Below the pieces are notes generated by a model. The model did not search any database, was not told the origin of the DNA, and saw nothing but the letters and a program-made list of their open reading frames with translations. From assembly GCF_056712565.1 (NCBI RefSeq), contig NZ_CM160072.1: a DNA stretch of 64,000 nt; one strand, given 5' to 3'. Each line of letters begins with the position of its first letter. The first letter of the stretch is position 1. Both the position numbers and the translations under genes were made by a program. Below, piece by piece: positions 5,203 to 50,268 of this stretch.

Positions 5203-7949
<2,747 letters not shown>

Positions 7950-40824: not shown

Positions 40825-40841
40825 TCGCGTTATACGGCAAC

Positions 40842-40872
40842 AGCCGATGTCATTGCAGACATCGGCTTTTTT
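40842..40872 (+). terminator. Intrinsic terminator of argS
   Basis: AGCCGATGTC-loop-GACATCGGCT followed by TTTTTT. Confidence 0.8.
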
Positions 40873-40876
40873 ATCA

Positions 40877-45351: not shown

Positions 45352-46805
<1,454 letters not shown>

Positions 46806-46807
46806 CG

Positions 46808-47668
46808 TTAATCCTTACTTAGCGCATACACCGTCTGACCACGCAGCGTGAAGCGGCGCTCAAGGTGGCTAAAGTTTTCAGAGTGACCCGCAAACAGCAA
46901 TCCGTCGGGTTTAAGGAGCGGAACAAAGCGGCGCAAAATCTTCTGCTGGGTAGTTTGATCGAAGTAGATCATGACGTTACGACAGAAGATCGCATCAAAC
47001 GGCCCCGGCACGGTGTACTGTTTCGCCAGTAAATTCAGCGGGGCAAAATCAACATAGTTCGCCAGCTCCTGACGCACGCGTACCAGCCCTTCATGCGGTC
47101 CCGTCCCTCGCATGAAATACCGTTGCAGTTGCTGCGGCGTCAGTTTTTTCAACTCTTCATGGCGATAAATACCGCTTCTGGCTTTTTCCAGCACTTCGGT
47201 GTCGATATCGCTGGCAAACACTTTCCAGCGTCCGGGCGCGGTGCCCAATGTATCAGCCAGCGTCATCGCTATGCTGTACGGCTCTTCGCCGGTTGAAGCC
47301 GCCGCGCTCCATACGCGATACTCGCCAGAACGGCGACGTGCGTGATCCGCGAGCAGAGGAAAATGGTGTGCCTCACGGAAAAATGCCGTCAGATTCGTGG
47401 TCAGCGAATTGATAAACGCCTGCCACTCACCGCTGTGCTGATTAGATTCCAGCAAGTTCAGGTAATGACCGAAATCCGCCAGTCCCAGCGCACGCAAACG
47501 ACGAACCAGTCGGTTGTAAACCATGTCGCGTTTATGGTCAGCCAGAACGATCCCGGCTCGTTGATAGATCAATTGACTTATCCGCCGAAAATGCGCGTCG
47601 GAAAGCGCCAGGCGCTCGGTCATCTGTAACAATAAAGACGTTTGCCCACAGGGCAGAGATGAAGTCAT
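46808..47668 (-). CDS. cheR: Chemotaxis methyltransferase CheR
   Basis: 286-aa ORF matching CheR. Confidence 0.95.
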
Positions 47669-47686
47669 AGCGCCTTCTCAATCACT

Positions 47687-47913
47687 TCAGGATACCACTG
47701 GCGCAATTTGTAACTGCGCCGACTCATGTCGTGCTACTTCATGTTCTTCAAGGGTAAATACCGCCACACGCGACGAAAGATGGTCGGCCTGATTCAGTCG
47801 TTGCAAATCGTCGCGAAATGCCCAAAAGACATGCCGTTACTGCCAATCTGCAAGATCCCGCAGAGAATCAAAATTAAAAACAGCGTGGTCGAAATTCGAA
47901 TACGATTAAACAT
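47687..47913 (-). pseudogene. tap: Remnant of MCP gene tap (dipeptide chemoreceptor): internal deletion plus frameshift
   Basis: Minus strand from ATG 47913 encodes MFNRIRISTTLFLILILCGILQIGSNGMSF and stops after 40 codons (stop 47794-47796). A different frame encodes a C-terminal tail ...ADHLSSRVAVFTLEEHEVARHESAQLQIAPVVS ending at 47687-47689. Only about 230 bp remain where a 1.6-kb MCP gene is expected. Confidence 0.7.
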
Positions 47914-47958
47914 CAACGCTCCCCATCAGGCGGCAATGACCGCTTTAGTAAATACTCG

Positions 47959-49620
47959 TCAAAATGTTTCCCAGTTTGGATCTTGTTCAGCAATTCGCAG
48001 TCGTGGCTGTGCCGGTGGTTGCTCACTGGCAGGACGGGATGGTGTTTGCGGTTTATTGGTGAGTGGGCTGGCTGCCAGACGGAACGCGGAAACCGCTTGC
48101 GTTAAACGACTCGCCTGTTCTTCCAGCGCAGCTGCGGCGGCAGCTGATTCCTGCACCAGCGATGCGTTCTGTTGCGTGACGCGATCCATTTCCGAAACCG
48201 CCAATGCGACTTGATCGATGCCACGGCTCTGTTCATCCGATGCTGATGCAATCTCGCCCATAATGTCAGTCACGCGAGTGACAGCATTGACGATATTGTT
48301 CATTGTTTCCCCAGCGCTTTCGACCAGCACCGAACCGGTATCAACGCGCGAGACGGAGTCTTCAATGAGGACTTTGATCTCTTTTGCCGCCTGTGCACTG
48401 CGACTGGCAAGATTACGCACTTCACCCGCCACCACGGCAAAACCACGGCCCTGTTCACCCGCTCGCGCGGCTTCAACAGCGGCATTCAGCGCGAGGATAT
48501 TAGTCTGGAAGGCAATACCATCGATAACGCTGATAATGTCGGCAATTTTCTTCGAACTATCGGCGATCTCATGCATCGTTTTCACTACGCCATCCACCAC
48601 TTTGCCGCCGTGCTGGGCGGTGTCGGAGGCACTTTGCGCCAGTTGCGAGGCCTGGCGGGCGTTATCGGCGTTTTGCTTCACTGTCGCGGTGAGCTGCTCC
48701 ATGCTGGCGGCAGTTTCTTCCAGCGCGGATGCCTGCTGTTCAGTACGGGAGGAAAGATCGGTGTTGCCCGCCGCAATTTCACGGGTACCGGCATAGATGG
48801 CATCTGAACCTTCGCGCACATGAGTGACGGTGTCAGTCAAAGAGCGTTGCATATGTGAAACGCTCTGCGCCAGGTCGCCCATTTCACTGCGCCCGTCAAT
48901 GGTCAGGGTATTCGCCAGGTTACCACCGGCAATTTCGCGAATATGCGCAATAATTTTTGCCAGCGGTGTAAGCAACATACGGCGAATGCCGTACCACGCC
49001 ACCAGCAGAATCAATACCACCACCAGCGCGATAACCGCCAGTTGCCACTGGGCAAATCGGTAATCATCTGCGTTGTCAGTGACGATATCGCGATACAGTT
49101 TTTCACTGCTGAGGGCGTACTGAGCAAACGCTTCGCCCATTGCATTTTGCATTCCCTGGGTTGGCTGAGCGAAATAAGCTCCAGTATTGCCATAATCAAG
49201 ATAATCAATCAGTTCAGTTAACGCTGTGTGATAGTTTTTATATTTTTCATCAATATTACGACTGGTAGCGACCATTTCAGGTAACGGTGCCATGCTTTTG
49301 AATTTTTTATAATGAGTCGCGGCCTGGGCCAATGTTTTCCTGGCACTATCGAGCAACTCAACTTTGGCATTACTTTGCTGATTGGATGAATCCATCATCA
49401 TCCGCACCGCTGAACGACTCAGGTTAATGCGCGTTTGTAGCATTAAATCCCATGTTGACGTCAGCTCGCCCTGCTGTTCCCGTAATTGATTGGAAACCAC
49501 AAAGCTCTTCTGGCTATGGTGAAGGGAAGAAAAAAACAGACTGCCGGAAATAAGCTGTAACAGTGCGAATACCCCCAGCACCATTACCAACAGCGTGACT
49601 ACGCGGATACGGTTAATCAT
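47959..49620 (-). CDS. tar: Methyl-accepting chemotaxis protein II (aspartate/maltose receptor Tar)
   Basis: Start taken at [18 protein letters not shown] (553 aa); C-terminal NWETF pentapeptide. Confidence 0.92.
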
Positions 49621-49651
49621 AAGGCACCTTCCTGAAAACAAGTTGATCTCG

Positions 49652-49678
49652 TTATCGGCAAGGAGGGGGGAAACTTTA
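49652..49678 (-). promoter_or_regulatory. Sigma-28 (FliA) class 3 promoter of the tar-cheRBYZ operon
   Basis: Minus strand TAAAGTTT-N11-GCCGATAA, a perfect match to the sigma-28 consensus, about 30 bp upstream of the tar start. Confidence 0.88.
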
Positions 49679-49708
49679 TTGCTGATGCCACCCGCCGCGA
49701 AATTGAAA

Positions 49709-49738
49709 TAAAAAACCCGATGCGCAGATCATCGGGTT
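49709..49738 (-). terminator. Intrinsic terminator downstream of cheW
   Basis: Minus strand ACCCGATGATCTGCGCATCGGGT followed by TTTTTT. Confidence 0.8.
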
Positions 49739-49764
49739 CATTTCAATTGAGGAAATCGGGAGAA

Positions 49765-50268
49765 TTACGCCACTTCTGACGCCGCGCTATCTAACAGCGC
49801 CATCTCTTCGCTGTTCAGCAGTTTTTCGATGTTCACCAGAATCAACATGCGGTCGCCCAGTGCGCCCAGTCCTGTGAGATATTCGGTTGAAAGCGTCACG
49901 GCAAATTCCGGTGCCGGACGAATTTGCTCCGCCGTCAATGAAAGCACGTCTGAGACGCCGTCAACCACGATGCCGACCACCCGCTGTCCGAGATTCAGGA
50001 CGATAACTACCGTGTTGTCGTTATAGTCCACATCCACCTGGCTGAACTTAATTCGTAAGTCAACAATCGGCACAATAACGCCGCGCAGATTCGTGACGCC
50101 TTTGATAAACGCTGGCGTGTTCGCAATCCGTGTCACCTGATCGTAGCCACGGATCTCCTGCACTTTCAGAATATCAATACCGTACTCTTCATCACCAAGG
50201 GTAAATACCAGAAATTCCTGGCCTGACGGCTCGCTGGCCAGCTTTGTTACATTCGTCATACCGGTCAT
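49765..50268 (-). CDS. cheW: Chemotaxis coupling protein CheW
   Basis: 167-aa ORF matching CheW. Confidence 0.95.

What the first reader, a model, noticed from the sequence alone, without database searches (positions are those of the whole stretch)
47669..47958. tap chemoreceptor gene reduced to a frameshifted remnant of about 230 bp between cheR and tar
Seen in sequence: no ORF of 60 aa or more lies on the minus strand between the tar stop (47959) and the cheR start (47668). The minus strand still carries an MCP-type N-terminus (MFNRIRISTTLFLILILCGILQIGSNGMSF) that stops after 40 codons, and in another frame an MCP C-terminal tail ending IAPVVS. Established knowledge: K-12 has a full-length tap gene (about 533 codons) at this position, and loss of tap and trg has been reported as common in uropathogenic E. 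coli. Inference: an internal deletion of roughly 1.4 kb plus a 1-nt frameshift; the strain would lack dipeptide taxis while keeping Tar with its NWETF tether.
Basis: partly seen in the sequence, partly recalled or inferred. Interest (0 to 1): 0.55.

Follow-up and report, generated by a model that had tools for sequence, protein, structure and literature searches.

The report
Known tap chemoreceptor pseudogene scar
This is the well-known dead remnant of the tap (dipeptide/pyrimidine) chemoreceptor gene carried by about a fifth of sequenced E. coli; it is already annotated and published, and the only mildly new points are that the same deletion has arisen several times at one short repeat and exists in two junction variants.

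Summary
Window 47913-47687 (minus strand) is a 227-nt tap remnant between intact tar and cheR. Compared with K-12 tap (1602 nt) it has two lesions. One is an in-frame 1374-nt deletion (Tap residues 43-500) between two copies of the imperfect repeat GAATCAGG-n-CGA-n-CA, with the junction at 47795-47781. The other is a separate 1-nt loss in a T5 run (47827-47824), which gives a stop after 39 codons. The scar is in 1058 of 5426 complete E. coli genomes, including ATCC 11775 (6 mismatches to the window in 64 kb) and Nissle 1917. NCBI annotates it as a frameshifted pseudogene, and the loss of Tap in UPEC/B2 strains is published. First, the same deletion without the frameshift sits on at least two non-B2 haplotypes that otherwise match intact-tap genomes, so the site is a recurrent deletion hotspot. 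Second, B2-type genomes carry two junction variants (about 920 versus about 135 genomes), both with the frameshift, which hints that the frameshift came first. Function is lost; there is no convincing sign that the remnant is repurposed. Ordinary, low interest.

The parts
49652..49678 (-). Sigma-28 (class 3) type promoter motif TAAAGTTT-N11-GCCGATAA upstream of tar. It would drive the tar-(tap remnant)-cheRBYZ transcript.
   Evidence: (one match in the window; 0.03 expected by chance). Promoter function is inferred from the consensus and was not tested.
47959..49620 (-). tar, intact, 553 codons, ending in the NWETF pentapeptide.
47914..47958 (-). tar-tap spacer with the retained tap ribosome-binding region (GGGGAG at 47924-47919).
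   Evidence: It is identical to K-12 except for one A/C difference.
47687..47913 (-). tap pseudogene remnant, 227 nt. It consists of K-12 tap nt 1 to about 131 (minus 1 nt) fused to nt about 1494-1602.
   Evidence: RefSeq annotates it as a pseudogene, 'frameshifted; incomplete'.
47824..47827 (-). T4 run, which is T5 in intact tap. This is the -1 frameshift.
47794..47796 (-). Premature TGA stop reached after 39 codons. It overlaps the start of the junction repeat.
47781..47795 (-). Deletion junction: the single surviving copy of the imperfect direct repeat GAATCAGG-n-CGA-n-CA (13 of 15 matching in intact tap, copies 1374 nt apart). The window has the C...C form, meaning the crossover fell in the first 8-nt block.
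47687..47780 (-). The 3' fragment of tap (last 31 codons plus stop), out of frame with the start codon because of the T4 run.
47673..47679 (-). cheR Shine-Dalgarno sequence (GAGAAGG), retained just downstream of the tap stop.
   Evidence: It matches the native cheR RBS sequence listed in PMC2716512.
46808..47668 (-). cheR, intact, 286 codons.

Best explanation
The interval is a dead remnant of tap (methyl-accepting chemotaxis protein IV). Shown: two lesions separate it from the intact gene. The first is a 1374-nt in-frame deletion whose end points lie in two copies of the short imperfect direct repeat GAATCAGG-n-CGA-n-CA. It removes residues 43-500, which is the whole ligand-binding domain, TM2, HAMP, the methylation helices and the signalling tip. 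The second is a -1 slip in a T5 run 30 nt upstream of the junction, which stops translation after 39 codons. Inferred: the deletion arose by misalignment between the short repeats (replication slippage or single-strand annealing), and the frameshift arose by homopolymer slippage. No receptor can be made, so the strain should lack Tap-mediated taxis to dipeptides and pyrimidines. Meanwhile tar, the cheR ribosome-binding site and cheRBYZ stay in one transcript from the tar promoter, with no terminator introduced. Shown: the allele is shared by about 20% of complete E. coli genomes. Shown: the same deletion, without the frameshift, has arisen independently on non-B2 haplotypes, so the repeat pair is a recurrent deletion site. 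Inferred (about 55%): two junction variants both carry T4, so in the B2 lineage the frameshift probably came before the deletion or deletions.
For: The remnant is 99% identical to K-12 tap on both sides, and the two alignment blocks overlap on the repeat. The deletion is exactly 1374 nt (458 codons), the repeat copies lie at K-12 tap nt 120 and 1494, and the run is T5 in K-12 versus T4 here. RefSeq annotates a pseudogene in ATCC 11775, Nissle, IAI39, S88, ST131 and others. Census: 1058 genomes carry the scar, 4321 are full length and about 47 are something else. Independent origin: Z1323CEC0015 equals intact-tap FORC_042 minus exactly the inter-repeat 1374 nt, with 0 mismatches in the 303-nt middle, 2 in 8394 nt on the left and 1 in 3053 nt on the right. 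HH45 relates to intact-tap WEC the same way, with an identical middle and flanks identical for 3671 nt and 642 nt. These flanks are 26-61 SNPs from B2-type flanks. Two junction variants...GGCCGACCATC... versus ...GGTCGAGCATC..., and the only two variable sites fall exactly on the two repeat mismatches, in about 913-923 and about 135 genomes respectively. There is no terminator-like site on the gene strand between tar and cheR, and a sigma-28 motif lies upstream of tar. Literature: loss of Tap is common in UPEC and B2 strains (PMC3559539; PMC12623472). Tap senses dipeptides and pyrimidines (PMC4742279).
Against: No phenotype or expression was measured. For the recurrence claim, three natural non-B2 genomes is a small number, and import of a short unframeshifted scar by recombination cannot be formally excluded. 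For frameshift-first, no full-length tap with T4 was found among 4322 full-length genomes, so the proposed intermediate is not observed. The GAATCAGG pair is not the longest or closest repeat in tap, so mutational bias alone does not explain why this pair recurs.
Confidence: 0.95

Rival explanations
1. The remnant has been repurposed. Either the 39-aa peptide (Tap TM1) is a functional small membrane protein, or translation of the short ORF tunes cheR expression. This would parallel the truncated trg of B2 strains, which turned out to encode the regulator Tls.
For: The tap start codon and ribosome-binding region are retained. Among 10 B2/F-type haplotypes, the 290-nt tar-cheR interval has no variable site other than the junction variant, against 10.4 expected at the 4-fold-site rate of the flanking genes. 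The Tls precedent is in PMC12623472.
Against: The empirical control shows that 21% of 290-nt windows in the flanking coding DNA have two or fewer variable sites and 5% have none, so the low diversity is not exceptional. Nothing of the signalling domain survives, unlike Tls. Independent non-B2 scars keep T5 and would encode a different 75-aa product. No expression data exist.
Confidence: 0.04
2. There was a single origin. The deletion happened once and reached the non-B2 backgrounds and the second junction form by recombination or repair, not by repeated deletion.
For: E. coli recombines frequently. IAI39 and CE10 (phylogroup F by my own knowledge) carry a remnant identical to the window's, with flanks inside B2-type diversity. 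One annealing event with an unrepaired heteroduplex across the 15-nt repeat could segregate both junction forms.
Against: In HH45, HH97 and Z1323CEC0015 every informative site within 31 nt upstream and about 60 nt downstream of the remnant core, including T5, is of the local non-B2 type. Each middle segment equals a local intact allele minus 1374 nt. An imported tract would have to be under about 90 nt and come from a T5 donor. Converting the window-type junction to the ST131-type by recombination with an intact donor lacks homology on the right-hand side (inference).
Confidence: 0.12
3. Deletion came first in the B2 lineage, and the T5-to-T4 slip happened afterwards, either twice in parallel or once followed by spread.
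For: All independent non-B2 scars are T5, so the deletion does not need a prior frameshift. No full-length T4 allele was found. Homopolymer runs are slippage-prone (established knowledge).
Against: Both junction variants carry T4. The run is otherwise stable: apart from three genomes from one study, all of the roughly 1050 B2/F-type scars are T4.
Confidence: 0.4
4. The short interval is an assembly or sequencing artefact.
For: One scar-bearing record (EcN_Sk) does look reference-scaffolded, and three T5 B2-type records come from a single study.
Against: The same scar is in 1058 complete genomes from many laboratories and platforms, including several independent Nissle and type-strain assemblies.
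Confidence: 0.01

Closest known systems
Loss of tap in uropathogenic / phylogroup B2 E. coli (Lane et al. 2006, J Bacteriol 188:5618; Borziak et al. 2013, J Bacteriol 195:3596)
   Same: Same gene, same locus, same strain group. CFT073-type strains encode only tsr, tar and aer, and B2 strains are described as having lost Tap (as cited in PMC3559539 and PMC12623472). I regard the window's feature as this lesion.
   Different: I could not read either primary paper because neither is held. I therefore cannot say whether the exact junction, the in-frame nature of the deletion, the two junction variants or the non-B2 recurrences were reported. PMC12623472 calls Tap 'completely lost', whereas 227 nt remain.
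Tls, the truncated trg of B2 E. coli (PMC12623472)
   Same: It is a chemoreceptor gene of the same strains, truncated and long regarded as a pseudogene.
   Different: Tls keeps an open reading frame with part of the cytoplasmic signalling domain plus a new N-terminus, and it has a demonstrated regulatory function. The tap remnant keeps no signalling domain, and its frame is broken after 39 codons.
Deletions between short direct repeats in E. coli (the classical lacI deletion hotspots; my own knowledge)
   Same: The end points lie in two copies of a short imperfect repeat, one hybrid copy remains, and the same end points recur independently.
   Different: Here the events are seen in natural populations. 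The pair used is not the longest or closest repeat in the gene, so a selection filter on which deletions survive is probably involved (inference).
tar-tap hybrid gene in strain ET474
   Same: It is another natural way of losing tap at the same locus.
   Different: It was made by unequal recombination between the homologous 3' halves of tar and tap, leaving one 1608-nt chimeric gene rather than a short-repeat deletion. I did not analyse its junction further.

Membership tests
tap (MCP IV) locus of E. coli | Position between tar and cheR in the tar-tap-cheRBYZ operon | tested here: met
   same neighbours and orientation as K-12.
tap (MCP IV) locus of E. coli | Nucleotide homology to reference tap | tested here: met
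   272/276 and 226/227 identities to the K-12 tar-tap-cheR region on the two sides of the junction.
tap (MCP IV) locus of E. coli | Intact reading frame with ligand-binding, HAMP and signalling domains (a functional receptor) | tested here: not met
   residues 43-500 are deleted and the frame is broken after codon 39. It is therefore a pseudogene, not a functional member.
Short-direct-repeat (microhomology) deletion | Two repeat copies at the deletion end points in the intact allele and one copy at the junction | tested here: met
   the copies lie at K-12 tap nt 120 and 1494, also in WEC, FORC_042 and D9, and a single hybrid copy remains in all scars.
Short-direct-repeat (microhomology) deletion | RecA-independent slippage or annealing mechanism | not testable with these tools
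   This needs genetics: deletion frequency in recA, and in strains with altered repeats.
Repurposed chemoreceptor fragment (Tls-like) | Retained open reading frame containing part of the signalling domain | tested here: not met
   no signalling-domain codons remain in frame. Only TM1 (39 aa) is translatable from the native start.
Repurposed chemoreceptor fragment (Tls-like) | Sequence conservation beyond neutral expectation | tested here: inconclusive
   2 variable sites against 10.4 expected at the 4-fold rate (P = 0.002); 21% of coding flank windows are equally invariant.

The most novel reading that the evidence does not exclude
The remnant is not inert. Its retained start region and 39-codon TM1 ORF (or the 75-codon in-frame version in T5 strains) would be translated, and would either act as a small membrane peptide or set the translation level of cheR immediately downstream. 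It would then have been kept for that reason, as happened with the truncated trg (Tls) in the same strains.
Probability: 0.04. Interest if true: 0.55.

Novelty: already known. Interest (0 to 1): 0.2.

Why it matters
For genome annotation it matters little, because the pseudogene is already called and the loss of Tap in UPEC/B2 strains is textbook for that field. There are three modest gains. The lesion is now described to the nucleotide. The identical deletion recurs on unrelated haplotypes, which gives a natural example of a short-repeat deletion hotspot that could be assayed directly. The two junction variants are a simple sequence marker that splits scar-bearing genomes about 920 to 135. 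They also bear on the order of events in the loss of the gene.

Tried and rejected
1. Lane 2006 (PMC1540019) and Borziak 2013 (PMC3754581) are not held, so what they reported about the junction is unknown to me.

2. I first took EcN_Sk (K-12-identical flanks plus the scar) as proof of an independent deletion and then rejected it. It is collinear with Nissle over 50 kb, with only seven 1-nt gaps but 935 mismatches. It is 99.9% identical to K-12 except at the structural differences. That pattern fits a reference-scaffolded consensus.

3. I tested whether some intact tap genes have a perfect 12-nt repeat that would explain the hotspot. None was found.

4. I looked for a full-length tap with T4 as the intermediate for frameshift-first. 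None was found.

5. An exact-match scan for the junction 25-mer in one genome per species found nothing. The pattern was verified in the window. This says little, because the match is exact and there is one genome per species.

6. The constraint test on the remnant looked significant against 4-fold sites. It did not survive an empirical sliding-window control.

7. One search counted 1174 genomes covering at least 80% of a 1401-nt scar query, against 1058 with three junction-centred queries. I attribute the excess to pieces joined through tar/tap paralogy but did not verify this. I used 1058.

8. The census threshold (at least 80% coverage) would not detect small deletions or frameshifts in the 4321 'full-length' genomes.

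Full report
**Observation**

On the minus strand, tar ends at 47959 and cheR starts at 47668, and no ORF of 60 aa or more lies between them.
- From ATG 47913 the sequence reads MFNRIRISTTLFLILILCGILQIGSNGMSFGHFATICND and stops at TGA 47796-47794.
- In another frame the stretch ends ...HESAQLQIAPVVS, with TGA at 47689-47687.
- Tar is intact and ends in NWETF.
The remnant is 227 nt, not 'about 230'. The ORF has 39 sense codons from the ATG.

**What it is**

The window is almost identical to the E. coli type strain ATCC 11775 (CP033092.2), with 6 mismatches in 64,000 nt. In that record the interval is annotated as a pseudogene: 'Tar ligand binding domain-containing protein; frameshifted; incomplete'. 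K-12 has a 1602-nt tap gene at this position.

Alignment to K-12 gives two blocks of 99% identity that overlap on a short repeat. Exact bookkeeping shows two lesions.
- **Deletion:** K-12 tap carries GAATCAGGTCGA at nt 120-131 and GAATCAGGCCGA at nt 1494-1505, exactly 1374 nt (458 codons) apart. The remnant keeps one copy, at window 47795-47784.
- **Frameshift:** the T5 run at K-12 nt 87-91 is T4 in the window (47827-47824).

So the large deletion is in frame. On its own it would leave a 75-codon ORF made of residues 1-42 fused to residues 501-533. The frame is broken by the separate 1-nt loss. A longer comparison shows the microhomology is GAATCAGG-n-CGA-n-CA, 13 of 15 positions.

**Context**

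- A sigma-28-type motif (TAAAGTTT-N11-GCCGATAA) lies upstream of tar at 49678-49652.
- The only terminator-like site on the gene strand in the scanned region 47500-49900 lies upstream of that motif (49739-49713), following cheW. None lies between tar and cheR.
- The cheR ribosome-binding sequence GAGAAGG (47679-47673) is retained. It matches the native cheR RBS listed by Løvdok et al. (PMC2716512).
- The remnant is therefore most likely transcribed as a passive part of the tar-cheRBYZ message (inference).
- That paper tested translational coupling for cheR_cheB, cheB_cheY, cheY_cheZ and cheA_cheW, but not for tap_cheR. Whether moving the upstream stop codon from 18 nt to 126 nt before cheR matters is unknown.

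**Distribution**

Three queries centred on the junction each find the contiguous scar in 1058 of 5426 complete E. coli genomes.

| State | Genomes |
|---|---|
| Full-length K-12 tar-tap-cheR region (at least 80% covered) | 4321 |
| This scar | 1058 |
| Other states | about 47 |

- The 'other' states include a tar-tap hybrid gene in strain ET474 and genomes lacking the region.
- Scar carriers include Nissle 1917, S88, ATCC 25922, ABU 83972, UM146, IHE3034 and ST131. They also include IAI39 and CE10.
- From my own knowledge the first group are phylogroup B2 strains and the last two are phylogroup F.
- The IAI39 remnant is identical to the window's, and its flanks lie inside B2-type diversity.
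- Papers in the library state that CFT073 encodes only tsr, tar and aer, and that loss of Trg and Tap is common in UPEC (PMC3559539 citing Lane 2006). They also state that B2 strains have lost Tap (PMC12623472 citing Borziak 2013).
- The finding is therefore already known.

**Recurrence**

Seven scar genomes have T5 rather than T4.
- **FCI5, FCI23, FCI29:** three genomes from one study with B2-type flanks. FCI5 has 0 differences from Nissle over 5.2 kb. Homopolymer error or true reversion cannot be told apart here.
- **EcN_Sk:** it has K-12-identical flanks but is collinear with Nissle over 50 kb. There are 935 mismatches and only seven 1-nt gaps, and it breaks against K-12 exactly at the structural differences. 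I treat it as a reference-scaffolded consensus and discard it.
- **HH45, HH97, Z1323CEC0015:** these have non-B2 flanks (26-61 SNPs from B2-type). Their local structure also differs from Nissle's and from each other's.

For the last three, the closest intact-tap genomes give a clear answer.
- Z1323CEC0015 equals FORC_042 minus exactly the 1374 nt. There are 0 mismatches in the 303-nt middle, 2 in 8394 nt on the left and 1 in 3053 nt on the right.
- HH45 equals WEC minus the same 1374 nt, with flanks identical for 3671 nt and 642 nt.
- The middle of HH97 equals that of D9 minus 1374 nt, with flanks that diverge sooner.
- All three are T5.

The same deletion has therefore arisen at least twice, and probably three times, outside the B2-type lineage.

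The repeat pair is not the longest or the closest in the gene. A 12-mer pair lies 267 nt apart, and there are 34 exact repeats of 8 nt or more. It is, however, the best-extending pair among those more than 1 kb apart. No intact tap with a perfect 12-mer was found. I infer that survival of the product also shapes what is seen. This deletion is a clean, in-frame, near-complete removal that spares cheR expression.

**Two junction variants**

Among ten B2/F-type haplotypes the 290-nt tar-cheR interval has only two variable sites. Both fall on the two mismatch positions of the repeat.
- **Window-type:** ...GAATCAGGCCGACCATC..., with the crossover in the first block.
- **ST131-type:** ...GAATCAGGTCGAGCATC..., with the crossover in the last block, seen in the ST131 genome and strain 98194.
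- About 913-923 genomes carry the first form and about 135 carry the second.

Two point mutations that both restore the 5'-copy bases are very unlikely. Converting one form into the other by recombination with an intact donor lacks homology on one side (inference). So these forms are either two deletion events or two segregants of one annealing event.

Both forms carry T4, and the run is otherwise stable across about 1050 genomes. The simplest order is therefore frameshift first and deletion later. The predicted intermediate, a full-length tap with T4, was not found. I give this order about 55%.

**Is the remnant functional?**

The precedent of Tls, a truncated trg in the same strains that proved to be a regulator (PMC12623472), makes the question fair.
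- The remnant keeps its start region. It shows fewer variable sites than the 4-fold-degenerate sites of the flanking genes: 2 observed against 10.4 expected, P = 0.002.
- However, 21% of 290-nt windows in the flanking coding DNA are equally invariant, and 5% have no variable site at all.
- Nothing of the signalling domain remains, and independent scars would encode a different product.
- I rate repurposing at about 4%.

**Verdict**

The feature is a known, annotated pseudogene scar. What these analyses add is the exact anatomy, a census, the recurrence at one microhomology, and the two junction variants. Loss of dipeptide and pyrimidine taxis follows from the known role of Tap (PMC4742279) and was not tested.

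Noticed in passing
L012 (NZ_CP172017.1, EcN_Sk, 2132500-2182499): This Nissle-labelled, Nissle-sized genome is collinear with Nissle 1917 over 50 kb, with only seven 1-nt gaps. It nevertheless carries 935 mismatches that make about 42 kb 99.9% identical to K-12, while keeping Nissle's large indels (the tap scar, no yecT, the prophage at yecE). It looks like a reference-scaffolded consensus or a very odd recombinant.
   Followed up: partly
L011 1670-3277 (NZ_CP100954.1, strain ET474): A single 1608-nt gene annotated as tar sits directly before cheR, and its 3' part matches tap at about 93%. It appears to be a tar-tap hybrid made by unequal recombination between the paralogues. If so, it would end with the Tap tail rather than NWETF.
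   Followed up: partly
window 5203-5865 (+), mismatch at 5669: exoX is an uninterrupted 220-codon ORF in the window, whereas the ATCC 11775 record CP033092.2 annotates it as a pseudogene with an internal stop. One of the six window-versus-record mismatches (5669) lies in this gene. The others are at 6853, 11323, 14549, 27417 and 47144.
   Followed up: partly
window 40825-40876: Only a 52-nt spacer separates argS and flhE. K-12 has yecV and yecT (an LprI-family lysozyme inhibitor) there. HH45 keeps a 69-nt yecT fragment, and HH97 and Z1323CEC0015 have yet other spacer lengths, so this junction is structurally variable among strains.
   Followed up: no
L006, L008, L009 (FCI5, FCI23, FCI29): These three B2-type scar genomes from one Colombian study have T5 instead of T4, which restores a 75-codon ORF. 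FCI5 is otherwise identical to Nissle over 5.2 kb. This is either homopolymer error or genuine slippage back.
   Followed up: partly
window 45756-46805 (cheB) and the same gene in L008, L010, L021, L024-L029: Among ten B2/F-type haplotypes cheB has 15 variable sites out of 182 4-fold sites. That compares with 6/283 in tar, 2/143 in cheR and 2/91 in cheW, which suggests an imported segment in some lineages.
   Followed up: no
window 47726-48214 (+): A 162-codon ORF runs antisense across the tap remnant and the 3' end of tar. It is most likely a spurious antisense frame, and it is not annotated in RefSeq.
   Followed up: no
H40 (NZ_CP170328.1, BKQ37E) and H190 (NZ_CM194009.1): A few genomes match only part of cheR next to a 'motility-associated protein', or have no tar-tap-cheR region at all. 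These indicate larger deletions of the flagellar/chemotaxis region.
   Followed up: no
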